IMG/VR virus record: IMGVR_UViG_3300045988_141143
Length of the DNA stretch: 64,000 nucleotides
Direction: 5' to 3' (one strand)
Source of the DNA: a virus
The translations under genes and the position numbers were made by a program. Position 1 is the first letter of the stretch, and each line of letters begins with the position of its first letter. The notes under the pieces are model-generated. The model was not told where the DNA came from and searched no databases. It saw nothing but the letters and a program-made list of their open reading frames with translations. Below are positions 13,880 through 63,419 of the stretch, piece by piece.

Positions 13880-14128
13880 CTAAGACATTTTCTTCTCTAC
13901 GATAGCTGTCACATCAGACACAAGCTGTAAGTCTTTTGCCTCTTCTGGCGAAATCTTGATATGGAACATGGTTTCGGTCTGAAGAACGAGGTCGAGAAAG
14001 TCAATAGACTCAAGAGCAAGATCATCACGCAGGTTAGCGCTGTCGGTCACTTCTGCTGTCGATGCCCAAGGTGTGCGCAGGCCTTCAACGATATTGAACA
14101 CCCGCTGACGTATATCTTCTTTGTTCAT
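13880..14128 (-). CDS. Acyl carrier protein
   Basis: 82 aa, acidic. DDLALESIDFLDLV resembles the phosphopantetheine-attachment DSL-type motif and helix II. Its start overlaps the ketosynthase stop (ATGA). Confidence 0.65.
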   Translation of the reverse strand: MNKEDIRQRVFNIVEGLRTPWASTAEVTDSANLRDDLALESIDFLDLVLQTETMFHIKISPEEAKDLQLVSDVTAIVEKKMS

Positions 14129-15339
14129 GATGGTTGATATTTAGAGATGATGAATGATGAGTTGGTGCCTCCGAAGCCAAAGGCATTGCAGAGGATATGG
14201 TGTGCTGAGTACTCGCGTGACTGCATGACGAGATTGAGTTTGGGAAAAGCATTCTCGGCTGTGGTAGCCGCACCGAAGACAGTGTCTGTGTTGAGCATCA
14301 TGGATGCTTGAACGGCCTGCGATACACCAGCCATCCAGCACTCGTGCCCCGTCATGCCCTTGGTGGCTACGATATAAGGGCTCTCGGGGAATACCTTTCC
14401 GATGGCTTCTGCCTCTGCAGCATCGCCCAGCTCTGTACCTGTGGCATGGGCAAGGAGTACATCTATCATTCCTGCATCGAGTCCTGCCGATTCTATGGCC
14501 TTAATCATTGCCACTTCTTCCTGATAAGCATCCGGGGTACAGATGTTGGTGCCGTTGGTGGAGAAGCCGCAGCCGGAAAGTTCTGCCACGGGCGAGACTT
14601 CATAATCCTCGAAACGCAAGCTGTCGGAAGGCTCAAGAATGACACAGGCTGCACCACCCGAAGGAGCAAGACCATTGCGGCCTTTGCCGAAGGGCTGCAC
14701 CTTGTCGGGCGAGAAAACGCCCATGGCATCAAACGACAGCATGGAGAAGGGACCTGTCTCCTGTGCGCCAACGACAATCACCATGTCGGTTTGGCGCGTA
14801 TCAAGAAGCATCTTGGCAAGACCGATGGCATGACCTCCTCCGGCACAAGCCCCGCTGACGGTAAGCGAAAGTCCTTTCAGTCCGTAGATAGAGGCGAGAC
14901 TCATGCTGACGGTGGAATTGAGTGTACGGAACACTGCGCCTGCCCCTAAACGTCGGGTGTCGCGCTGTGTAATGGCAGTTGTCATTGCCTGATAGTTGTC
15001 TCCAGCCGTAGTGTCGTTGCTGACGATGACCGATACATTGTGAGACTGCAAGAACTCGGGAAGAATATTGGCTTCCATCAGAGCCTCGTTGACGGCAGAT
15101 AAGGAATATAGGGTCGGTTCGGAAAGACATTGCCGTTGAGCCCTGGTGAGTTCGGATAGCTTCCAAGGGTTCGGGTCATTTATCTTTCCGCACAGGTCGG
15201 ACTGATAACCTTTCTCGCTACGTGCGGGGTCGTGGTGAAGACCGCACTCTCCATACGCCAGCTTCTGTGCGACGGAAAAGGTATCGTTGCCAAGACAGGA
15301 AACGATACCTGTGCCTGTGATTAATATTTTTCTATCCAT
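14125..15339 (-). CDS. Beta-ketoacyl-ACP synthase (KAS I/II-like)
   Basis: SGACAGGGHAIG aligns to the FabF STACTSGVHNIGHA active-site Cys. HATGTELGD and ATKGMTGHECWMAG align to the two catalytic His residues. C-terminal NAFGFGGTNSSFI. Confidence 0.8.
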   Translation of the reverse strand: MDRKILITGTGIVSCLGNDTFSVAQKLAYGECGLHHDPARSEKGYQSDLCGKINDPNPWKLSELTRAQRQCLSEPTLYSLSAVNEALMEANILPEFLQSHNVSVIVSNDTTAGDNYQAMTTAITQRDTRRLGAGAVFRTLNSTVSMSLASIYGLKGLSLTVSGACAGGGHAIGLAKMLLDTRQTDMVIVVGAQETGPFSMLSFDAMGVFSPDKVQPFGKGRNGLAPSGGAACVILEPSDSLRFEDYEVSPVAELSGCGFSTNGTNICTPDAYQEEVAMIKAIESAGLDAGMIDVLLAHATGTELGDAAEAEAIGKVFPESPYIVATKGMTGHECWMAGVSQAVQASMMLNTDTVFGAATTAENAFPKLNLVMQSREYSAHHILCNAFGFGGTNSSFIISKYQPS

Positions 15340-25024: not shown

Positions 25025-25795
25025 TCAGAACAGCGTGAGCTGTGCTTGCTCCAACTTGATGCGCTTGCAAGCCTTGTCGTAATACTCCTTGTTGAGCTCA
25101 AAGCCGATGAAGTTGCGCTTCTCTTTTATACAAGCAATGGCGGTGGTGCCGCTGCCCATGCAGTTGTCTAATATGGTGTCGCCCTCGTTGGAGTAAGTAC
25201 GGATGAGGTACTGGATGAGAGCGACAGGCTTTTGAGTGGGGTGGAAGCTGTTGTGAATATCCCTCTGAAATAAGACAATATCGGTTGGATATTTTTCGTC
25301 GGTTATCATATCCTTCACTTTGCCATAATTTCCGTAACATCTGTTGGTTTGCTCTTTCTCTTGCTTTCCTCTGCTGTGATTGCGTTCATGTGGAAGACAT
25401 TTGCGCATTTGTGGATGATAGGTTGGCTGTCCGTCGTAGAAAACGGAAATCATCTCCGTTTGCTTTAGAGGCATCTTCTTTGTGTTCAAAAAGCCAGTTG
25501 TACGGCATTTATCCCACGTGATATTATAGCGCCACATCTTTTCATTGCTCATCATCAGTTTTGCCGTGAACATACCCTGTCCGAACAATATTATAGCCGC
25601 ATTGGGCTTACTGATACGAAGATATTGCTTCCATAAAGAATCAAGTGGAATAATACTATCCCATCCTCCTCCTTCGCTCTGCTTATTGAGGACACCATAC
25701 GGCAAATCGCACACAATGCAATCCACGCTTCCGTCTGGAATCCTTTTCATTCCTTCGAGGCAGTCTTCATTATATATTTTGTTCAGTTCTATCAT
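25025..25795 (-). CDS. DNA methyltransferase (beta-class N6A/N4C)
   Basis: Motif IV VCDLPYG precedes motif I DNCMGSGTT. N-terminal IYNEDCLEGMKRIPDGSVDCIV. Confidence 0.8.
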   Translation of the reverse strand: MIELNKIYNEDCLEGMKRIPDGSVDCIVCDLPYGVLNKQSEGGGWDSIIPLDSLWKQYLRISKPNAAIILFGQGMFTAKLMMSNEKMWRYNITWDKCRTTGFLNTKKMPLKQTEMISVFYDGQPTYHPQMRKCLPHERNHSRGKQEKEQTNRCYGNYGKVKDMITDEKYPTDIVLFQRDIHNSFHPTQKPVALIQYLIRTYSNEGDTILDNCMGSGTTAIACIKEKRNFIGFELNKEYYDKACKRIKLEQAQLTLF

Positions 25796-30530: not shown

Positions 30531-31439
30531 TTATCGCATGGCTTCCTCAAGAGTTCTAATATAAGGTATGGCTTCGTTGCGCACAATGTCGAGAAAAAGT
30601 TGTGCTGACCGCTTCATCGGCACGTCCTTCATCCAGTGGGCATTGCTCATCAGGTCGTGCTCAAGCCCAGCGATGGGACGGACGGTAAGGGTGGGGTGAC
30701 TCTTCAGATAAAGTTTAGGCATGAAAGTAACACAATGGGTTTCTTCCACGATGGCAAGGTCTTCGTTGGGGTCGCTCACAATACATTTTACATTCAGTTT
30801 CATCAAGTCGTATCTCAGATATTGCTGGAAGGTATTGAACACCCTTTCGCCTACATCGGGCATAATCACGTTGTGCCTTAACAAATCCTCGTATGACACC
30901 TTTTCCAGTCGGGCCAAAGGATGGGTGTCCCGCATCATCGCATAGATACGGAAAGGAATACAGGGTTCTGACTTGATACCCTCATTCTTGTAGGCAGAGT
31001 TCAGAGTGAAGGCGAGGTCAATGGAGTGGCTTCTCAACAGGTGGTTCAAGTTCGCTGCCTTGGCAAACTCGGCGTTGATTCTCACATTCGGGTATCGCTC
31101 CATGAAGATAAGTGCAGCCATCCGAATGTAAGGTGCGATAAAAGAGCCTACACCTATCCTCAGCTCGCCCACAAGGCAGTTGTTGAGCGCATTGATTTGC
31201 TCCTTGCAGTCATCCGTCTGCTTCAGTATCTCCTTGGCGCGAGGCAAAAGCGCCTCGCCGCTCTCGGTGAGCATGATGCTGTGCGAGGTGCGGATAAGCA
31301 GCTTGCACCTCAGTTCATCCTCAAGAGCCTTGATGTGCTGACTGATGGCGGACTGAGTGACACAACAGCGCGTGGCTGCAATGCTGAAAGATAAAGTTTC
31401 AGCGACATATACAAATGAGCGCAAATGACGAAGTTCCAT
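30531..31439 (-). CDS. LysR-family transcriptional regulator
   Basis: N-terminal HTH MELRHLRSFVYVAETLSFSIAATRCCVTQSAISQHIKALEDEL followed by a LysR substrate-binding-like domain. Confidence 0.75.
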   Translation of the reverse strand: MELRHLRSFVYVAETLSFSIAATRCCVTQSAISQHIKALEDELRCKLLIRTSHSIMLTESGEALLPRAKEILKQTDDCKEQINALNNCLVGELRIGVGSFIAPYIRMAALIFMERYPNVRINAEFAKAANLNHLLRSHSIDLAFTLNSAYKNEGIKSEPCIPFRIYAMMRDTHPLARLEKVSYEDLLRHNVIMPDVGERVFNTFQQYLRYDLMKLNVKCIVSDPNEDLAIVEETHCVTFMPKLYLKSHPTLTVRPIAGLEHDLMSNAHWMKDVPMKRSAQLFLDIVRNEAIPYIRTLEEAMR

Positions 31440-37099: not shown

Positions 37100-38077
37100 T
37101 TACCTTTTTACTTTTTTACCTTTACTTCTATGGTAGTACAACAGGATAATATCTGTTACTCTAAAGCAATAGTTGGCTGGATCTTTATCCGCTGTGACAG
37201 TACATCCCGCCTCTTTCATCACCTTGTCGAGCCTTTCTGTCTGACTGGGCGATAAAACTTTGACGAGCGATAAAGCATCTATATACGTTCCTCCACTTTC
37301 CGTATGCTTGATAAATTCCTTATCAAAATGGGTTTCATTGTAAAAAAACAGGTTAATGGCTTCTACCATCTGCTCTGCAGTATAAACTGGCAACATGGGT
37401 GTCAGTTTACGAAGCTTCTTGCTGTAGGTAGTCAAACGTTTGCTGAGGTAATCGTCGATACTGTCAGAATATTCAAAATACAGCTGTGCTTTAGGAGTGT
37501 TGTCATCCTTACCAATAACAGACTGATAAAAGCCACGAAGTTGCTGTATCATTTTGATAACACCGTCGAACTGATGGAACTCAGTAGTATTGCCGAAGAC
37601 TGCATACATATTCGACCTGACATCCTTCACGACGCATTCCAGCATGTCGGAAAGAAACGCTACCTTATCAAGGTTGAGTGACAATGTATCTACCTTCTCT
37701 TGCATACCATCCTGAGAATAATCTACAAAATATCTCAGTAGAGTACCGAAGGAGAAAAAGTCGAAGGTAACGTTGGAACGAACATTCGCCAACACAACGG
37801 AGGAATACATCGTATAAGCCAGCTCTAAATCGCGCTTCTGTATCTGCTTCACCAGATTTTGAATTTCCGATGAACCTTGCTTCAACCGACTTGCCACCTT
37901 CGCGAGGTTGTTGCGTCTCGTCATCAACTCATTAAAGTCAGGATCACGAAAGAGTAGGTCAAGCGACTCGGTATATTTCTCCAAAGGTACGTCTTTGAAG
38001 TTAATGGAATAAATGGTAGGCTGCGCATAGATGGCATCTATGCGCTTTGCCTCTTGTTGCTTTTTGCTTTTGCCCAT
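37100..38077 (-). CDS. Hypothetical protein
   Basis: 325 aa. Ends SKGKKVKR*, matching the C-terminal end and 3-prime flank of the ORF at 27848-28375. Confidence 0.35.
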   Translation of the reverse strand: MGKSKKQQEAKRIDAIYAQPTIYSINFKDVPLEKYTESLDLLFRDPDFNELMTRRNNLAKVASRLKQGSSEIQNLVKQIQKRDLELAYTMYSSVVLANVRSNVTFDFFSFGTLLRYFVDYSQDGMQEKVDTLSLNLDKVAFLSDMLECVVKDVRSNMYAVFGNTTEFHQFDGVIKMIQQLRGFYQSVIGKDDNTPKAQLYFEYSDSIDDYLSKRLTTYSKKLRKLTPMLPVYTAEQMVEAINLFFYNETHFDKEFIKHTESGGTYIDALSLVKVLSPSQTERLDKVMKEAGCTVTADKDPANYCFRVTDIILLYYHRSKGKKVKR

Positions 38078-38156
38078 ATTAAAATCTACTATTTATCATA
38101 ACGTCCATTAATGACCAAACGGAAAACGCATCTTTAGCCATGATTATCAAATACGA

Positions 38157-38546
38157 TTATCTCTCGTCACCATCGCCGGCAATGACATTTCGCTGCTTGC
38201 GAGAGGCAAGTTTAGCCAGGTTTTCCTCAGCCACTTCTTCGAGCGTAACACCCATCACTTTTGCCAGTCCTGCTGTCTGCCAAAGAATGTCGCCGATTTT
38301 AGAAAGCATCAGATGGCGTTCCTCGTCACTGACGTTCCACACCTGTGTATGCAGGATCTTGCCTTCCTCGTCGCGCTGGGTAGTGGTGATATGCAGCTTG
38401 CCTTTGCGCATGTGCTTACCGGCTTTGCTTGCAAACTCACCAACCTCGCCAACGAGATTGGCAAGCATATAGAAGAGGTTGTCACTCTCAGGAAGACAAG
38501 TACTCATTGCCTTGTCCTGATATTCGTTTAATGTTAAATTTGCCAT
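38157..38546 (-). CDS. MazG-like nucleotide pyrophosphohydrolase
   Basis: LANLVGEVGEFASKAGK and IGDILWQTAGLAKVMGVTLEEV match the MazG EEXXE motifs. Start taken at MANLTL. Confidence 0.65.
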   Translation of the reverse strand: MANLTLNEYQDKAMSTCLPESDNLFYMLANLVGEVGEFASKAGKHMRKGKLHITTTQRDEEGKILHTQVWNVSDEERHLMLSKIGDILWQTAGLAKVMGVTLEEVAEENLAKLASRKQRNVIAGDGDER

Positions 38547-38571
38547 GATATATATATGTTTATATTGATGA

Positions 38572-39468
38572 TTATATGTCAAACTCATCACAATACTGGC
38601 GCATACGCTCGATGATGATGTTGCGTATCTTCTCACCAATAATCTTGGCATTGGGATGCGGTGTGCCCGTCTTGCCATGATAGCGAAGGTCGAGAATATG
38701 GCTCCAGTCGGAAAGCGTATAGGTATATGCCACAACGGTATAGGTATCGAGAGGCAGAACACCTCGTGCGTCCTGCGGCTTCAAGCCGGACTTCAGAAGT
38801 CGGTTGTAGCCCCACTCGCATACTCGGCATACAAGGCCATAGACCATGCGCTGCCAACGACTGCCTTCTACGTGCCAATGCGGACGTGCTATCTGTACGC
38901 CTCCCTTCTTCTCTAAATAGCAATAGCGTGTGCTCTGTTCGGCGATGCTGTTGGGCGACGTGCGGTTGAGCTCACGCGAGGTACTTATCTGCGTGGTTAC
39001 TACCAGCGTCATGCGGATAATAGAGAATGCCTCCTCGCACTCGTACTTCAGTGCCTTCTCGATAAACTCGTCTTCGCTGACACCATACTGACTAAGCGTA
39101 TTCATTATGTCCTCGTGCTCAAGCGCAAACTGAGTATTGGTACTGAACCATACCTTATGATTCTTGGTGGCATAGTTGATGTAAGGCGATGCCTCCAGAT
39201 ATGCCCAGATGTGGTTAGGAAGACCCCTTTCGTTGGGCATAAAGAAATAGACTGTGCCGTGGCGAAACATCGAGCGATGTCCGCTTTCCCAGAAGCCTTT
39301 GCAGCGTTCCTCGTCACGCTTCTGGATGAAAGTTTTCTCTTCCTCTTCGGTCATTCCTTCTTCGGGCTGCTTGCCCTTTGCCTTGTAGCATATTCTGCCC
39401 ACTCTTGCTATATGTTGTGCAAGAGTAGTCTGCTGCCACCATTCTACTTGTGGTTCGATGAATTTCAT
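38572..39468 (-). CDS. ThyX-fold (FAD-dependent thymidylate synthase-like) protein with a degenerate RHR motif
   Basis: HRSMFRHGTVYFF aligns to ThyX HETPFEHIVFTF. TSRELNRTSPNSIAEQSTRY aligns to RQWFRHRIASYNELSGRY, with RHR replaced by RTS. The C-terminal LDLRYHG region is conserved. Confidence 0.55.
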   Translation of the reverse strand: MKFIEPQVEWWQQTTLAQHIARVGRICYKAKGKQPEEGMTEEEEKTFIQKRDEERCKGFWESGHRSMFRHGTVYFFMPNERGLPNHIWAYLEASPYINYATKNHKVWFSTNTQFALEHEDIMNTLSQYGVSEDEFIEKALKYECEEAFSIIRMTLVVTTQISTSRELNRTSPNSIAEQSTRYCYLEKKGGVQIARPHWHVEGSRWQRMVYGLVCRVCEWGYNRLLKSGLKPQDARGVLPLDTYTVVAYTYTLSDWSHILDLRYHGKTGTPHPNAKIIGEKIRNIIIERMRQYCDEFDI

Positions 39469-39509
39469 TATGGATGAATTTTAATTTGTTATTAAAAGAT
39501 AGTGCATTC

Positions 39510-40016
39510 TCATATTTTCCGAAGTTTACTCAATACTCGTCGCTGCACCTTGTCACACAGACTTTCGAGCGAGCCGTTATTGAAGATTACTGCATCGTAG
39601 AAGAACAAGGACAGAAGATTGCGCTGTTGGTCGCGGTCTAAGCGTTCCTGCGACACCCCTCGGCGCAGTCGAGTTGCTTCCCATGCCGTCACACAAATCT
39701 TGAATAGCTCGATGTCGGGGAATTTCTCGCACAAGGCTTTCAGTCCGTCCTCGTCAATGACGTAAATAGCCTTGTCCGTCACCTGGTCGATGGTGGTCCA
39801 ATACTCATAGCCGCCATACTGGGTGTATGCCAACATCTTGTCGTGCGGTACGTCGCACTTCTCTACAAAATAATGCTGCCAACCGTCAATTTCGCCTTCA
39901 CGCTTCGGACGAGTGGTATAAGAACATATCACTTTATAGCCGCCCATGTCGGACAGCATCTGAGCCACAGTGTCCTTTCCTGCACCACTCGGACCAGTAA
40001 TTGTTATCAGTTTCAT
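39510..40016 (-). CDS. Guanylate-kinase-like P-loop nucleotide kinase
   Basis: GPSGAGKDT Walker A. YTTRPKREGEIDGWQHYFV aligns to guanylate kinase HTTRQPRPGEVHGEHYFFV. Confidence 0.65.
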   Translation of the reverse strand: MKLITITGPSGAGKDTVAQMLSDMGGYKVICSYTTRPKREGEIDGWQHYFVEKCDVPHDKMLAYTQYGGYEYWTTIDQVTDKAIYVIDEDGLKALCEKFPDIELFKICVTAWEATRLRRGVSQERLDRDQQRNLLSLFFYDAVIFNNGSLESLCDKVQRRVLSKLRKI

Positions 40017-40194
40017 ATATTTTTTGTTTGAATTTTAACATTTGAGCAATCAGTAAACAATCAGTAAACAATCAGTAGACATGAAGTAAATACGCATAGG
40101 CTTCACTCTTTGCGAAAATCGGGGCTTTTTTTGCCGTTTTTCGAGTTTTTGATTTAACACTTGTGAAAAAGTGTTTTTATGTGATTACGACCCT

Positions 40195-41280
40195 TTAGCC
40201 ATAGATTTCCTGCATATCCTCCCTCGAAAGTGTTACCTTGGCTCTTTTGCAAAACATGAAAAAAGTATTTGCTCTTACTCTTTCGTATTTTCCGAATGAC
40301 TTCCAAGGAGCCACAAAGTCTGATTCACGGTGTCCGTGGTTGGCATCAAAGGGACGGAAACGAGAAACTCGCTTCCACATATCATAGCCTTCATTCGGAT
40401 CGATACTGTATAAAGACATTCCGCATTTAACCCAGTCATCATAGTTTTCCATAATGTCAACAGCATTCTGCTCTACCTTACGTACAAGGACACGCGCTTT
40501 GCGCAAGATGATGTCGGGTGTATCATTTTCCCAATCACCAGTATAACCCGACCTCTGACCTGACGACGTATTTTCGTAATGCGTAGCAACTTTAGTTACA
40601 GGAATTAGCGATGGCAACACAGCCATATCTTCCAGTCCCTTATACGGCACCACATTTTCATTGATATATATATGTTCGGGATCGTCCCAGGAGGCGAAGC
40701 GCACACGACCGATGTTGCTGCAAGCCTTGTCGAGCATGATGCCGATAGCGGCATATTCTTTGAGCAGAGCTTTGAACTGGTCTTTGTGTCTTTCGGGATA
40801 GGCCAGACGAACCAGACCGAAATAACCAGTACCAGAGCAAGACCGCATCATTAATCCTATCTCAGGACGAAAACGGGCAAGCTTAAATATACTTTCAAAA
40901 TCAGTTATCTGAAGATTGTCCTGCAGATCAATGTCGATGGCGAGCCAGCCCGTGTGCTGTTTCAGGTGGCTCTCTCGTCGGCTCACCATGACACGCTGCC
41001 CTGGATGCGTCAGACTGTCATCTTCATAGAGAGCGAACAAGCCGCTAAGAGTGGCACCAGGTAACATCTTCTTGGTATTGATGTACTCAGGCATTTTCTT
41101 TGCCTTGCTGCCAAATTCCTGACGCATAGCACGAAGACGCTGCACATACGGCTTCCATCTATCCGTAAGACAGAACTCGCGGATGGTCATCTGCTGAATG
41201 CACTCACCCGTCTCGCGGTCTACGAAACGGCCATAAGCATCTTGGGCAGACTCATAAATAGAGCAAACTTCGTCAAACAT
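40195..41280 (-). CDS. Primase-polymerase (AEP-like) domain protein
   Basis: GWLAIDIDLQD (DxD), CSGTGYFGLVRL and NIGRVRFAS resemble archaeo-eukaryotic primase motifs I-III. Adjacent to an iteron-rich region. Confidence 0.45.
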   Translation of the reverse strand: MFDEVCSIYESAQDAYGRFVDRETGECIQQMTIREFCLTDRWKPYVQRLRAMRQEFGSKAKKMPEYINTKKMLPGATLSGLFALYEDDSLTHPGQRVMVSRRESHLKQHTGWLAIDIDLQDNLQITDFESIFKLARFRPEIGLMMRSCSGTGYFGLVRLAYPERHKDQFKALLKEYAAIGIMLDKACSNIGRVRFASWDDPEHIYINENVVPYKGLEDMAVLPSLIPVTKVATHYENTSSGQRSGYTGDWENDTPDIILRKARVLVRKVEQNAVDIMENYDDWVKCGMSLYSIDPNEGYDMWKRVSRFRPFDANHGHRESDFVAPWKSFGKYERVRANTFFMFCKRAKVTLSREDMQEIYG

Positions 41281-42199
41281 ATCTTAGTTATTATACTTAA
41301 TACTTTCACTGCAAAATTAAGAAATAAAACCTAAATAACAAAATATCTGGGGTATTTTCTTGTGTATTTAAGATATATTAAAAGAAATTTAATCGAAATA
41401 TCCCAGTTGTTTCACGTAATGATAGGTATTTTTGAGTGATGAGAAGGAGCATAAAATAAAATGAGACCAAAAAGAAGACTCTGGTCTCATTTCTGTATCA
41501 AAAAGTCCCATTTTTCAAAAATGAACCAAAAAGCAAAAGTCCACTCATCCTATTTTTCTCCTTTTTAGTCCCATGATTGTCTCACGATTATCACCCTGTT
41601 GCCCACTTATTTCTTGCTGTTACTTGCTTACTAATTAGCTTTTTATATTATTTTGGTCTCAAAATGATTATTTTTTTTATAAACTAATATGCGCATAAGA
41701 AATAAAATATTTATCTAAAAGATATAAAATACAGCAAAATTGGCTCAAATCCATCTTATACTTTGCTCCATTTCAATCTTGTAAGTAACTTATTGTCTGA
41801 TGTTTACGGCAAAGCCGTTAATGCTACTAACTTCTAAATTGAGGTTAGGGGCTTTTGATTTTAGGAGAATAAAAAAATTACCCAAAATTCTGATATAGTA
41901 TGCTTAGGATTCATGAAAAATGCGACCAAAACCCTGAAATGAGACCAAAAATGCGAATAAAGTCCCAATAAATGAGACTGTTACACCACTACTCTACCCT
42001 GTCACATTCATATTTGCGAAATGCGACCAGATTATTCGGATTCCATATTGACTATCGTTTTATAGCCGTTCACACCTCACAGCGAAAGAGAAAAACACTG
42101 CGTTTCACAACGAAAAAAGACCACCACGTTTCACAACGGAGCGGTCTCATCAGAAAATACTAACTAATAAATAAGATAAAGAAAATAAAATTCGTAAAC
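41281..42199. promoter_or_regulatory. AT-rich non-coding region with ATG(A/C)GACCAAAA iterons, putative replication origin
   Basis: Copies at about 41461, 41480 (inverted), 41521, 41653 (inverted), 41919, 41939, 42021 and 42141 (inverted). Inverted repeat GAGACC...GGTCTC at 41463-41488. AAAGTCCCA repeats. Confidence 0.4.
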
Positions 42200-51193: not shown

Positions 51194-52044
51194 ATGTTAA
51201 ACGAACAACTGCAGAAAAAGGTAAAACAGTCGATAAAACTCCTGCAGAGTGTGCAGAAGCGATACGACGGCGAGATAGAGATAGCCTACTCGGGCGGTAA
51301 GGACTCCGACGTGATCCTTCAGCTGGCGAAAGAGGCAGGCATCAAGTATCGGGCCATATACAAGAATACGACCATCGACCCGCCAGGCACGTTGGGGCAC
51401 GTCAGAGAAATGGGAGTGGAGATACTGCGGGCCAAGACATCCTTCTTTCATCTCGTGGCACAGAAAGGATTTCCATCTCGCTTTACTCGTTTCTGTTGTG
51501 AAGAACTGAAGGAATACAAGGTGCTCAACAAAAGTATTATCGGCGTGCGCAAGGCTGAGAGCCGGAAACGAAACGAAAGATACAACGAGCCGACAGAGTG
51601 CCGATACTTCGGAAAGAAGAAAGAGGAAAATCACGTAGAACAGATTTATCCTATTCTGGAATGGACCGATGAGGACGTGCGTGACTTCATCATAGACAGA
51701 AAGTTGAAACTCGCACCCATTTATTACAATTCGGGGGGCAAATCGACGTGTCGAAACGTCTTGGCTGTATGTGCTGTCCTCTTGCCTCAAGGCGCAAGCG
51801 CATTATCGAGTTTCAGAAATATCCCAAGATAGCAAAGGCTTATCTCCGTGCGGGGCAACGATTTATGGAAACGCATCCTGACAGCAAGGCGTGCCAGAGG
51901 TACGACAATGTTTACGAATGGTTCGTTCGCGACGTATTTTACAGCTCCAATGCAGATTGGAGCAAGGTAAGCACAGGGCTGTTCGGTAAGCCGGACTTCA
52001 AGAAATTCTTGGAGGACAAGTTCGGTATTGACTTGACATTATAA
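51194..52044 (+). CDS. PAPS-reductase-like (phosphoadenosine phosphosulfate reductase family) protein, frameshifted at a G6 run
   Basis: IAYSGGKDSDV PP-loop motif. The reading frame breaks at GGGGGG (51733-51738). The downstream frame continues with RLGCMCCPLASRRKR, the family's Cys cluster. Confidence 0.55.
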
Positions 52045-62103: not shown

Positions 62104-63419
62104 TCAGTTCTCATTCTTCCTCTCCATATTCTCCTTGAACATTTCTCCGAAACCATCCCAATAATGAGCGTCCATCCATTCGGGCGAGGATAAAAACTGC
62201 TCATACATCATTGTCGCAGGTATCGTCCGTAGGTATTTCTCGCAAGCCTTAACGTCTTTGTCCCACAAATCCATCCGCTCCATTTCTATCTGAAAATACG
62301 TCTTGAGGAACATTGCCGCCTCATGTGTCGGTGGCAGGTCGAATTGAAGGAATAAGGCATTGTCGGAGTCGTTTGCCTTGAGGAACTTGCTCACGGCATC
62401 GTCCTTGAGGAAATAGCGGTCAGACACTTCCTCTTCGAGCACGTCTTCCAATCGGGTAAGCAGCTCGAAAGGTTCTGGGAACTGATAGTCGAATGCCACG
62501 TCTCGGCGCATGGAGAGGCAGAACACACGGTCGCGGTTTTGTGGCACACCGTAGTTCTTGGCGTTGAGTCGCGTCCAACGGCTCACATAGCCGAGCGACG
62601 AGAGTTTGTCGAGCCACTTCTGAAAGTCTGGCAAGAACTTCTGGCTTACCAGTGCCGCCACGTTCTCCTGCAAGAGATACTTCGGGCGAAGCACCTCCAC
62701 AGCATCCGCCACACGCCAAAGCAGTGCGCTTCGGGTGTCGCTGCCCTCCTGCAAGCCCATTTGCTTGCCCGCCTGACTGATGTCCTGGCAAGGCGAGGAA
62801 TAGGTGAAGAGGTCTACTTCGCGGCCTTCGAGCGAGCTTTCCACCTCGTGCCAGTCAATCTTGGTGATGTCGCCCAGGGCGCAGTCGGCAAACTGAGGGA
62901 AGACGAGGTTGTGCATCTGACAGGCGTATTTGTCGATGTCGCTCCATCCTATACATGTCCATCGGAAGTCGGGATGCCACTCGCGGAGCACATCGGCTGC
63001 CATAAGCTGCGAGTCGTAGCCGAAGAACGTGGTAAGGAATATCTTCTCCTCGTTCTTGTTGGCTGCGGTGGGCGGCAGGGCGGGTAATGTGTCTTCGAGG
63101 TCGTCGAAGAGCGAGAGTTGCTTTTGCTTACGAGGTTTGGGCGTAGGATAGAAAAGTTGCTCGTAGATGTGGGCCAACACGTCCACCACGATGCTGTTTC
63201 CGGCTTGCTTGTACTGCTGTGAGGCAGATATAGCCATGTCTTCGGGCTTGCCCTTGCCTTTCCAGTCGGGCAGACGTTCGGCTGCTTGAGCATTGCTGCT
63301 CTGCATCGTGCCGATTACATTGTCACGAACGCCATCAGACGAAAACACTCCTTGGGTGTGAGCTTGCGGATGGCATAGCTCTTGATGGTGCGGTCGGTGA
63401 AATTGAGTTTTGTAATCAT
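62104..63419 (-). CDS. DNA (cytosine-5)-methyltransferase with motifs IX-X at the N-terminus and an apparent frameshift
   Basis: Motif IX RKLTPKECFRLMAF lies in an ORF starting at 63419 and ending at 63315. The next frame carries motif X YKQAGNSIVVDVL, then SSPCQDIS (PCQ), LQENVAAL (ENV), QNRDRVF, and a TRD start DVAFDYQFPEP...VSDRYFL. Confidence 0.55.

What the first reader, a model, noticed from the sequence alone, without database searches (positions are those of the whole stretch)
38157..40016. ThyX-like protein with a degenerate RHR motif clustered with a GK-like kinase and MazG, a candidate nucleotide-modification pathway
The 298-aa protein aligns along its length to flavin-dependent thymidylate synthase ThyX. 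The ThyX signature RHRxxxxxxxS reads R-T-S-P-N-S-I-A-E-Q-S here, so the first Arg and the final Ser are kept but His-Arg are replaced. This suggests an altered substrate or chemistry rather than standard dUMP methylation. The kinase immediately upstream is a guanylate-kinase-fold P-loop enzyme (GPSGAGKDT...YTTRPKREGEIDGWQHYF), the fold T4 uses for hm-dCMP kinase. A MazG NTP-pyrophosphohydrolase lies directly downstream. Together these three could make, phosphorylate and proofread a modified pyrimidine nucleotide (for example 5-hydroxymethyl-dU or a derivative) for incorporation into phage DNA. The adjacent prim-pol-like primase and the several methyltransferases in the window fit a heavily DNA-modified phage.
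Basis: partly seen in the sequence, partly recalled or inferred. Interest (0 to 1): 0.7.

Follow-up and report, generated by a model that had tools for sequence, protein, structure and literature searches.

The report
Phage ThyX variant lacking RHR motif
A gut phage carries a thymidylate-synthase-like ThyX enzyme whose family signature (Arg-His-Arg) reads Arg-x-Ser, a change conserved across a large phage-borne subfamily that includes the prototype crAssphage; it most likely still makes thymidylate with a rebuilt flavin-binding site, not a modified DNA base.

Summary
On the minus strand lie a guanylate-kinase-fold kinase (39510-40016), a ThyX-fold protein (38572-39468) and a MazG (38157-38546). 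The ThyX signature reads R-T-S-P-N-S-I-A-E-Q-S in an ungapped alignment. This is not a one-off decay. "RxSPN" marks a large subfamily: 121 of 133 aligned cluster representatives, including prototype crAssphage gp28, which the literature annotates as thymidylate synthase. The loss of the second Arg is coupled to a Glu-to-Arg change in the HxSxF[E]H motif: 130 of 133 sequences have exactly one Arg across the two positions. All dUMP, folate-stacking and isoalloxazine ligands are kept. RHR-type and RxS-type proteins occupy the same syntenic slot in crAss-like genomes. The MazG slot varies among relatives (MazG, trimeric dUTPase, or empty), and this window's MazG has a Glu-to-Lys change at a metal ligand. 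I read this as a dTTP-supply module built around a thymidylate synthase with a remodelled flavin-phosphate clamp (confidence 0.55). A modified-pyrimidine pathway is not excluded (about 0.2). Its best support is that nucleotide kinases of two different families sit next to RxS-type but rarely RHR-type genes, but that pattern is confounded by phylogeny. It is a new variant of a known kind.

The parts
38572..39468 (-). ThyX-fold protein of the 'RxSPN' subfamily, 298 aa. Flavin-dependent thymidylate synthase homologue lacking the His and second Arg of the RHR signature.
38923..38976 (-). Motif RELNRTSPNSIAEQSTRY (residues 165-182), the counterpart of the ThyX signature R-x3-RHR-x7-S-x-RY. Arg169 is kept; His becomes Thr170; Arg becomes Ser171; Ser179, Arg181 and Tyr182 are kept.
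   Evidence: Translation. Ungapped alignments. Across 121 RxS-type sequences Ser171 is invariant, Pro172 is in 120 and position 174 (Ser in this window) is Asn in 97. Asn173 is at least 90% conserved across all 133 aligned sequences.
39262..39264 (-). Arg69 in GHRSMFRH, the counterpart of the Glu in the canonical H-x-S/T-x-F-E-H motif (T. maritima Glu58). Proposed relocated flavin-phosphate ligand.
   Evidence: Translation. Arg in 119/121 RxS-type sequences and Glu in 8/8 RHR-type relatives. 130/133 sequences have exactly one Arg across positions 69 and 171.
39019..39258 (-). Insertion of about 75-80 residues (residues ~71-150: beta-strands plus helices) absent from solved ThyX structures. It is shared by the RxS-type and its RHR-type relatives.
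   Evidence: Two-stretch matches. Secondary structure of the model. Asn111 and Arg152 are conserved in both groups.
39510..40016 (-). Guanylate-kinase-fold P-loop nucleotide kinase, 168 aa, with the guanine-binding Glu replaced by Ala and a shortened LID. Likely a (d)NMP kinase of non-guanylate specificity.
   Evidence: Pfam Guanylate_kin 47 bits, PHROG 1815 2.5e-29. TIGR03263 54.9 bits, below the 160.45 cut-off. Alignment to E. coli and yeast guanylate kinases. Found immediately upstream of the ThyX gene throughout the window's phage clade.
38157..38546 (-). MazG-family NTP pyrophosphohydrolase, 129 aa, in a variable slot. This copy carries Lys83 (AAA, 38298-38300) where homologues have the Glu of the ExxD metal-binding motif.
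   Evidence: Pfam MazG 30.8 bits, PHROG 229 3.5e-24. Gene limits as called in L002/L003. E83K. Slot alternation.
40195..41280 (-). Primase (BT4734-like N-terminal domain plus PriCT_2), the first gene of the co-directional block. It is conserved upstream of the kinase/ThyX pair.
   Evidence: Pfam and PHROG hits. Conserved position.
37100..38077 (-). Conserved 325-aa protein of unknown function that always follows the variable MazG/dUTPase slot.
   Evidence: No family match. Found at 42-100% identity in the same position in almost all relatives of the window's clade.
41458..41493 (-). Terminator-like hairpin of 15 base pairs between the tape-measure gene and the primase gene. Possible upstream boundary of the transcription unit.
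   Evidence: The total numbers of terminator-like and promoter-like sites in the region are at chance level, so this is only a lead.

Best explanation
The block primase, kinase, ThyX-like, MazG is a phage deoxythymidylate-supply module.

Proposed pathway:
- The ThyX-like protein is an active flavin-dependent dUMP C5-methylene transferase, most likely a genuine thymidylate synthase (dUMP + CH2-THF + reduced flavin gives dTMP).
- The guanylate-kinase-fold enzyme, whose base pocket is no longer guanine-specific, phosphorylates the product to the diphosphate.
- The downstream slot holds an accessory dUTP-type pyrophosphatase that yields dUMP and keeps uracil out of DNA. This is MazG here and a trimeric dUTPase in some relatives.

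What is unusual is the flavin site, not the chemistry. In this subfamily the second arginine of the RHR motif, a flavin phosphate/ribityl ligand, has been lost. An arginine has appeared in place of the glutamate of the HxSxF[E]H motif. That motif, on the neighbouring subunit, already supplies a flavin-phosphate ligand three residues earlier. The positive charge has been relocated, and an S-P-N turn has replaced H-R.

Shown here: the fold, the motif change, its conservation, the covariation, retention of the dUMP and folate ligands, and the gene contexts.

Inferred: that flavin binding and dTMP formation are retained, the kinase's substrate, and MazG's specificity.
For: Fold and family:

Conservation:
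- All nucleotide and catalytic ligands are invariant or nearly so in 121 RxS-type sequences: equivalents of R74, R78, E86, S88, R90, Y91, R147, R174 and H53.
- The replaced residues are flavin phosphate/ribityl ligands (PMC6514825).
- The other subfamily-specific changes (positions 248, 250, 258) lie on the strand and helix that carry N163, R165 and N169. I recall these as T. maritima flavin contacts from Mathews 2003; this was not checked here.

Covariation:
- (Arg69, Ser171) occurs in 119 sequences and (Glu69, Arg171) in 8. No sequence has both arginines and only 3 have neither.
- Intermediates P0218 and P0260 keep His170 but already have Arg69 and lack Arg171.

Genomic context:
- RHR-type and RxS-type proteins occupy the same slot in crAss-like genomes between orthologous ligase (42% identity), Gp157 (33%), DUF932 (46%) and dUTPase.
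- A dUTPase replaces MazG in the same slot in at least 13 relatives, pointing to dUMP as the substrate.
- No ThyA and no second ThyX lies within 10 kb in any of 205 loci.
- Thy1 is the only thymidylate synthase listed for crAss-like phages (PMC7886860).

Signs of an active enzyme:
- LAGLIDADG domains, which I read as inteins, are inserted just after the STRY motif in two members. Inteins usually sit at functional sites of active enzymes.
- Very strong purifying selection: the motif is invariant across clusters that are 50% identical or less.
Against: - No biochemical data exist for any RxS-type member.
- His and the second Arg of RHR are treated as a defining signature of ThyX.
- The protein scores below NCBIfam's thyX equivalog cut-off: 47.4 bits, and crAssphage gp28 65.6, against 87.9. 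The RHR-type PhiCrAssBcn9 protein passes at 94.5.
- The RxS type was found only on phage-like contigs, never as the evident sole thymidylate synthase of a cell.
- A nucleotide kinase adjoins RxS-type genes much more often than RHR-type genes. A product that the host thymidylate kinase can handle would not obviously require that.
- I could not inspect coordinates, so the proximity of Arg69 to the flavin phosphates is inferred from sequence position only.
Confidence: 0.55

Rival explanations
1. Modified-pyrimidine pathway. The RxS-type enzyme releases a C5-substituted dUMP other than dTMP, for example 5-hydroxymethyl-dUMP formed by hydration of the exocyclic-methylene intermediate instead of its reduction. 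The adjacent dedicated kinase phosphorylates it because the host thymidylate kinase cannot. MazG or dUTPase trims competing dNTPs.
For: - A GK-type or T4 gp1-type nucleotide kinase lies within 2.5 kb in 98/121 RxS loci versus 2/78 RHR loci. At 60% dereplication the counts are 8/22 versus 2/30 clusters, p = 0.012.
- The kinases in the window's clade and in crAssphage share only the P-loop, which suggests two independent recruitments.
- Among deposited crAss-like genomes, the gp26-type kinase is detected almost only in RxS-type genomes.
- The P-loop ORFs next to RHR-type genes look like polynucleotide kinases, not NMP kinases. The PhiCrAssBcn9 copy is annotated as polynucleotide kinase and the others are closely similar to it.
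- The subfamily appears phage-restricted and scores below the thyX equivalog cut-off.
- From my own knowledge (Mishanina et al. 2012, not checked here): quenching of ThyX reactions yields 5-hydroxymethyl-dUMP, so the chemistry is feasible.
Against: - The substitutions map to the flavin phosphate/adenosine side, not to the C5/N5 reaction centre or the uracil pocket, so nothing links them mechanistically to a different product.
- The kinase association collapses at coarser dereplication (4/11 versus 1/4 clusters, p = 1) and tracks taxonomy (Crudevirinae plus one Prevotella-phage clade).
- Several RxS lineages have no adjacent kinase (L092-L099, L212).
- Synteny is identical to that of RHR-type orthologues.
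- MazG is dispensable in 95-96% identical relatives and mutated here.
- No glycosyltransferase, 5-hmdU DNA kinase or similar gene was found among the window ORFs scanned.
- Native nanopore reads of C. communis were assembled and mapped without reported difficulty (bioRxiv 2024.03.20.585998). This is weak evidence.
Confidence: 0.2
2. Cofactor switch. The enzyme performs the ThyX reaction but no longer holds FAD in the canonical way. It may use FMN, or a loosely bound or externally reduced flavin, because the AMP/pyrophosphate clamp has been rebuilt.
For: - All subfamily-specific changes cluster on segments that contact the AMP phosphate, ribityl and FMN phosphate in solved ThyX structures: RHR His and second Arg, the Glu58 position, and positions next to N163/R165/N169.
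- The first Arg of RHR and the Ser66 and Arg262 equivalents, which contact the isoalloxazine/FMN part, are kept.
Against: - The strict one-arginine rule suggests that the same phosphate is still being bound.
- No coordinates or binding data are available.
- The His178 equivalent (His271), which I recall as another FAD ligand, is retained.
Confidence: 0.18
3. Catalytically dead ThyX fold kept for a non-enzymatic role, such as nucleotide sensing or a scaffold in the replication complex.
For: Loss of two signature residues. Score below the equivalog cut-off.
Against: - All substrate and catalytic residues are invariant across about 120 divergent clusters.
- LAGLIDADG insertions (read here as inteins) sit at the active-site motif.
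- The gene is consistently linked with dUTPase and kinase genes.
Confidence: 0.05

Closest known systems
Flavin-dependent thymidylate synthase ThyX/Thy1 (T. maritima TM0449, PBCV-1 A674R, M. tuberculosis Rv2754c; Pfam PF02511)
   Different: - The His and second Arg of the RHR signature are replaced by x-Ser, followed by a conserved Pro-Asn.
- The Glu of HxSxFEH is replaced by Arg.
- About 75 residues are inserted after that motif.
- The protein falls below the TIGR02170 equivalog cut-off.
RHR-type Thy1 of cultured crAss-like phages (crAss001, PhiCrAssBcn, DAC15)
   Same: Same insertion-bearing architecture. The same syntenic slot in Crassvirales replication and nucleotide-metabolism modules. 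About 29-30% identity to the window protein and to crAssphage gp28.
   Different: These proteins keep RHR and the Glu, and PhiCrAssBcn9 passes the thyX equivalog cut-off. They lack the adjacent NMP kinase and have a polynucleotide-kinase-like gene nearby instead.
Prototype crAssphage (Carjivirus communis) gp26-gp28 module: dNMP kinase, Zn-finger protein, 'flavin-dependent thymidylate synthase'
   Same: gp28 carries the same RELNRVSPNNIAEKSTRY motif and the same Arg in HxSxFRH. A nucleotide kinase lies just upstream and a dUTPase lies downstream.
   Different: - Only 37-38% identity to the window protein.
- The kinase is of the T4 gp1 type, not the guanylate-kinase type.
- The host phage is a podovirus-like crAss-like phage, whereas the window phage has a 1983-aa tape-measure protein.
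T4 gp42/gp1/gp56 and SPO1 gp29 pathways (hydroxymethyl-pyrimidine synthesis)
   Same: Same logical layout: a C1-transferase, a dNMP kinase and an all-alpha NTP pyrophosphatase.
   Different: - Those hydroxymethylases are ThyA-fold enzymes with known specificity-switch residues. Here the fold is ThyX and no product switch can be read from the sequence.
- MazG is dispensable in relatives.
- No modified base has been demonstrated.
PolB of polyoxin biosynthesis (ThyX-like UMP/dUMP C5-methylase, PDB 4p5a)
   Different: PolB's FAD pocket is reported as almost unchanged from ThyX (PMC5003785). It differs in two substrate loops. The window protein differs in the FAD pocket.

Membership tests
ThyX / Thy1 (PF02511) | Sequence match above Pfam's gathering score | tested here: met
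   72.3 bits against a cut-off of 24.8, in two stretches.
ThyX / Thy1 (PF02511) | ThyX fold | tested here: met
ThyX / Thy1 (PF02511) | Signature motif RHR-x7-S | tested here: not met
   The motif reads R-T-S-P-N-S-I-A-E-Q-S. The first Arg and the Ser are kept; His-Arg is replaced. The alignment is ungapped against T. maritima, PBCV-1 and close RHR-type relatives.
ThyX / Thy1 (PF02511) | dUMP-binding and catalytic residues (T. maritima R74, R78, E86, S88, R90, Y91, R147, R174; H53) | tested here: met
   All are present in the window protein and 91-100% conserved in 121 subfamily sequences.
FAD-dependent thymidylate synthase, functional equivalog (NCBIfam TIGR02170) | Score above the curated equivalog cut-off | tested here: not met
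   47.4 bits against 87.9. crAssphage gp28 scores 65.6. RHR-type PhiCrAssBcn9 scores 94.5 and passes.
FAD-dependent thymidylate synthase, functional equivalog (NCBIfam TIGR02170) | Binds FAD and converts dUMP to dTMP | not testable with these tools
   This needs purified protein or thyA complementation.
Guanylate kinase | Guanylate_kin domain | tested here: met
   Pfam 47 bits against 25.2, residues 1-159.
Guanylate kinase | Equivalog score and the guanine-binding Glu (yeast E69 / E. coli E72) | tested here: not met
   TIGR03263 scores 54.9 bits against 160.45. The Glu is replaced by Ala in the conserved LAYTQYGGYEYW, and the LID is 10 residues shorter.
MazG NTP pyrophosphohydrolase | MazG domain | tested here: met
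   Pfam 30.8 bits against 22. PHROG 229, E = 3.5e-24.
MazG NTP pyrophosphohydrolase | Complete ExxE...ExxD metal-binding tetrad | tested here: not met
   ExxE is present (GEVGE), but the window has K-I-G-D. The 33 homologues where this motif could be read, out of 38 other distinct sequences, have E-[IC]-G-D. The difference is one G-to-A change.
Phage modified-pyrimidine pathway (T4 / SPO1 type) | Hydroxymethylase with recognisable product-switch residues | tested here: not met
   No ThyA-fold gene lies in the window's neighbourhood or in 205 related loci. In the ThyX-fold protein the changed residues are flavin-side, not at the reaction centre.
Phage modified-pyrimidine pathway (T4 / SPO1 type) | Dedicated dNMP kinase linked to the C1-transferase | tested here: met
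   The kinase lies 41 bp upstream. The link is enriched for the RxS type but confounded by phylogeny.
Phage modified-pyrimidine pathway (T4 / SPO1 type) | Obligatory dNTPase that removes the canonical nucleotide | tested here: inconclusive
   The MazG slot is MazG, dUTPase or empty in close relatives, and the window copy is mutated.
Phage modified-pyrimidine pathway (T4 / SPO1 type) | Non-canonical base in virion DNA | not testable with these tools
   No cultured RxS-type phage DNA has been analysed in the literature I could search.

The most novel reading that the evidence does not exclude
The RxSPN clade of ThyX-fold enzymes is a phage-specific neofunctionalised branch that makes a non-canonical C5-substituted dUMP such as 5-hydroxymethyl-dUMP. 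The branch includes gp28 of the prototype crAssphage and these abundant Prevotella-associated phages. On this reading, lineages of two kinds have each recruited their own nucleotide kinase next to it because the product needs one. Some of the most abundant phages of the human gut would then carry modified thymidine that short-read metagenomics cannot see.
Probability: 0.2. Interest if true: 0.85.

Novelty: new variant of a known kind. Interest (0 to 1): 0.5.

Why it matters
RHR-x7-S is used as the defining signature of flavin-dependent thymidylate synthases. Here a very large phage-borne branch breaks it in one fixed way, with a compensating change elsewhere. For this query, 4129 protein clusters at 90% identity match at E <= 1e-5, and 121 of the 133 aligned representatives carry the change.

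The branch includes gp28 of the prototype crAssphage, which every annotation I found calls a thymidylate synthase without comment.

If the enzyme is an ordinary synthase, it shows how the ThyX flavin clamp can be rebuilt. That matters for ThyX inhibitor design and for motif-based annotation.

If it is not, some of the most abundant gut phages may carry modified DNA.

Both readings are now cheaply testable, because C. communis can be grown on Phocaeicola vulgatus and the genes are small.

Tried and rejected
- Misalignment of the RHR motif: rejected. Ungapped alignments to T. maritima and PBCV-1 ThyX, and to close relatives that keep RHR in the same sequence frame, all agree.
- One-off degeneration or pseudogene: rejected. 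The motif is invariant across about 120 divergent clusters.
- Altered base specificity (dCMP): rejected as unlikely. The uracil-contacting Arg174, Arg90, Glu86 and Ser88 equivalents are invariant.
- Neighbour-joining tree to test whether the RxS type is monophyletic: inconclusive. Backbone branches are 0.002-0.012 and the tree has a single distant outgroup. Only the RHR relatives form a clear clade.
- Measuring the Arg69-to-flavin distance: not possible, because model and PDB coordinates are not exposed by the tools.
- Walking into the roughly 27-37 kb of the genome outside the window to look for hypermodification genes: partial. About 10 kb beyond the right end (L126, L207-L209) holds small unknown genes, YopX and methyltransferases. 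Beyond the left end there are HTH regulators and a large protein. Nothing relevant was found and the rest was not covered.
- Sampling contexts of distant representatives (P0130, P0143): the contigs were too short.
- Generic Walker-A scan: my first pattern missed the GKD-type P-loop of these kinases and had to be widened.
- Literature: ten full-text searches found no paper that notes the RHR loss in crAss-type Thy1, and no analysis of base composition for an RxS-type phage.
- Megablast of 20 kb around the locus against deposited phages: no match.
- Promoter and terminator scans: at chance level.
Full report
**What is at the locus.** The region 37100-41280 holds five co-directional minus-strand genes separated by gaps of 178, 41, 25 and 79 bp.
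- A primase (40195-41280; BT4734-like_N plus PriCT_2).
- A 168-aa kinase (39510-40016; Pfam Guanylate_kin 47 bits, PHROG 1815 2.5e-29).
- A 298-aa ThyX-like protein (38572-39468; Pfam Thy1 72.3 bits).
- A MazG (Pfam 30.8 bits, PHROG 229 3.5e-24).
- A conserved 325-aa protein of unknown function.

The MazG gene is 38157-38546 (129 aa), as called in near-identical contigs. It is not the longer GTG ORF that would overlap ThyX. A 15-bp hairpin at 41458-41493 may mark the upstream end of the unit, but promoter-like and terminator-like sites are at chance frequency overall. The window is a roughly 90-105-kb tailed phage with a 1983-aa tape-measure protein and a head protease. It has no near DNA match among deposited phages. 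Its closest relatives are IMG/VR contigs and 90-105-kb contigs binned into Prevotella MAGs.

**A family-level feature, shared with crAssphage.** Against 1.84 billion representatives the protein finds 2682 clusters at E <= 1e-3 and 123 at E <= 1e-30. Against the 90%-identity collection it finds 4129 proteins at E <= 1e-5. Among the 138 of the best 150 representatives in which the motif could be read, it reads RVS (87), RTS (24), RKS (11), other R-x-S (6), RHR (8) or RHV (1). The RHR forms are all among the weakest hits. In the phage database every hit is a crAss-like phage. Prototype crAssphage gp28 reads RELNRVSPNNIAEKSTRY. Cultured crAss-like phages are of the RHR type instead. RxS-type genomes in the deposited set are Intestiviridae: Carjivirus, Delmidovirus, Whopevirus, Diorhovirus and Wotdevirus. 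The literature calls the crAss gene Thy1 thymidylate synthase and considers it ancestral in the group (PMC7886860). I found no paper noting the motif change.

**What changed and what did not.** I compared 121 RxS-type sequences with 8 RHR-type relatives that share the insertion.
- Kept in both groups: the equivalents of T. maritima H53, H59, R74, R78, E86, S88, R90, Y91, R147, R174 and H178. These are the dUMP, uracil-activating, folate-stacking and isoalloxazine ligands. The residue roles come from the ThyX structural literature as I recall it.
- Different: position 69 (Arg versus Glu, the Glu58 equivalent), 170 (Val/Thr/Lys versus His), 171 (Ser versus Arg), 172 (Pro in the RxS type, variable in the RHR type), 248, 250 and 258.

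According to the review PMC6514825, the RHR residues H-bond the AMP phosphate, the ribityl and the FMN phosphate of FAD. The first Arg contacts the isoalloxazine. Ser71 and Arg190 of the neighbouring subunit in the M. tuberculosis enzyme contact the same moieties. Ser71 corresponds to window Ser66, three residues before Arg69. Across all 133 sequences, 119 have Arg69/Ser171 and 8 have Glu69/Arg171. None has both arginines and only three have neither. Two intermediates keep His170 but already combine Arg69 with loss of Arg171. I read this as relocation of one phosphate-binding arginine from one wall of the flavin site to the other. It is a change in cofactor binding, not in substrate binding.

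**Formal membership.** The protein passes Pfam's family threshold and has the fold, but fails the signature motif. It also fails NCBIfam's thyX equivalog cut-off: 47.4 bits, and gp28 65.6, against 87.9. The RHR-type PhiCrAssBcn9 protein passes at 94.5. The kinase passes Pfam Guanylate_kin but fails the guanylate-kinase equivalog (54.9 against 160.45). It has Ala in place of the guanine-binding Glu and a LID shortened by 10 residues, so it is probably not a guanylate kinase. It shares only the P-loop with crAssphage gp26, a T4 gp1-type dNMP kinase.

**Genomic context.** In the window's clade the order is primase, kinase, ThyX-like, a variable slot, then the 325-aa protein. The variable slot holds MazG in most relatives and a trimeric dUTPase homologue in at least 13. 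It is empty in others, including contigs with 95-96% identical ThyX. The window's MazG has Lys83 (AAA). The 33 homologues in which this motif could be read, out of 38 other distinct sequences, have Glu in the ExxD metal-binding motif. Where the DNA was compared (L007) the difference is a single G-to-A change. A 42%-identical lineage has primase, ThyX-like and MazG without a kinase. Another, including a 90-kb contig in the Prevotella sp. MGM1 isolate assembly, has a primase and ThyX-like gene with neither. In crAssphage the order is ligase, dNMP kinase, Zn-finger protein, ThyX-like, Gp157, DUF932, dUTPase. An RHR-type crAss-like contig has the same ligase (42% identity), Gp157 (33%), DUF932 (46%) and dUTPase around its ThyX. 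The two ThyX proteins are only 29% identical. No ThyA and no second ThyX was found within 10 kb in 205 loci. The interchange of MazG and dUTPase in one slot points to dUMP supply as the slot's role.

**The one pattern that favours a special product.** A GK-type or gp1-type nucleotide kinase lies within 2.5 kb of 98 of 121 RxS-type genes but of only 2 of 78 RHR-type genes. The P-loop ORFs near RHR-type genes are close to the one annotated as polynucleotide kinase in PhiCrAssBcn9. After dereplication at 60% ThyX identity the counts are 8/22 versus 2/30 clusters (Fisher p = 0.012). At 45% they are 4/11 versus 1/4 (p = 1). Genome-wide in deposited crAss-like genomes, the gp26-type kinase is found in RxS-type genomes and in one RHR-type contig. 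Two kinase families in two phage lineages suggest functional coupling. However, the signal tracks taxonomy, and several RxS lineages lack the kinase.

**Verdict.** The most economical reading is a dTTP-supply module around a functional ThyX whose flavin-phosphate clamp has been rebuilt (0.55). A sub-variant with a genuinely different flavin or binding mode is possible (0.18). It has no mechanistic support from the substituted positions. It is also weakened by the shared synteny with RHR-type orthologues and by a MazG that is dispensable in relatives and mutated here. A dead enzyme is unlikely (0.05), given invariant active-site residues and LAGLIDADG insertions (read here as inteins) at the STRY motif in two members.

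Native nanopore reads of C. communis were handled normally in the one culturing study, which argues weakly against bulky hypermodification. That same study provides an experimental system for the decisive tests: thyA complementation, cofactor and product identification, and nucleoside LC-MS.

Noticed in passing
window 38298-38300 (-), MazG codon 83: AAA (Lys) where the 33 homologues in which the motif could be read (of 38 other distinct sequences) have Glu, the Glu of the ExxD metal-binding motif. L007 has GAA, so the difference is a single G-to-A change. The 100%-identical IMG/VR contig L004 shares it. This may be an inactivating mutation in a gene that close relatives have lost or replaced by a dUTPase.
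   Followed up: yes
window 14125-15339 (-); also L097 5705-6934: A full-length beta-ketoacyl-ACP synthase homologue (Pfam ketoacyl-synt 7.7e-26 plus the C-terminal domain; below all NCBIfam equivalog cut-offs) sits among phage structural genes. It is also present in a distantly related Prevotella-associated phage lineage. This is an unusual auxiliary gene.
   Followed up: partly
window 51194-51832 (+): A PAPS-reductase / PP-loop ATPase family protein (Pfam 6.3e-12) next to the terminase region. It is conserved in relatives (L207-L209). It has weak similarity to DndC and CysD. Its role is unknown.
   Followed up: no
window 62104-63348 (-) and 25025-25795 (-): A C5 cytosine DNA methyltransferase (Pfam 1.3e-45) and a second DNA methyltransferase (PHROG 67, 4.7e-79). 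Relatives carry additional N6/N4 methyltransferases in variable positions. The phage evidently relies on ordinary methylation for at least part of its DNA protection.
   Followed up: partly
P0157 and P0200 (RxSPN-type ThyX-like proteins, 562 and 558 aa): LAGLIDADG homing-endonuclease domains, read here as inteins, are inserted shortly after the STRY motif of the ThyX-like protein.
   Followed up: partly
L097 (NZ_BEWV01000204.1, Prevotella sp. MGM1, 90,283-bp contig): An isolate genome assembly contains a phage-sized contig with an RxSPN-type ThyX-like gene, the same primase family, a ketoacyl synthase and a radical-SAM gene. This may be a culturable host-phage pair for experiments.
   Followed up: partly
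window as a whole, compared with IMG/VR contigs _134987 and _151591: The window is mosaic relative to its nearest relatives. The ThyX block is 99-100% identical to contig _134987. The methyltransferase at 62104-63348 is 99% identical to contig _151591 and only 83% identical to _134987. This suggests recent recombination within this phage population.
   Followed up: no
L210 2431-3321 (relative of the window's left end): A reverse-transcriptase gene (RVT_1, weak hit) lies near tail-fibre genes in one relative, possibly a diversity-generating retroelement. It was not seen in the closer relative L211 and was not checked in the window.
   Followed up: no
window 30531-31439 (-) / L002 17997-18905: The 302-aa protein (PHROG 3736, unknown function) carries precomputed Pfam HTH_1 plus LysR_substrate hits in a 95%-related contig. 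It looks like a LysR-type regulator inside the structural region of a phage.
   Followed up: no
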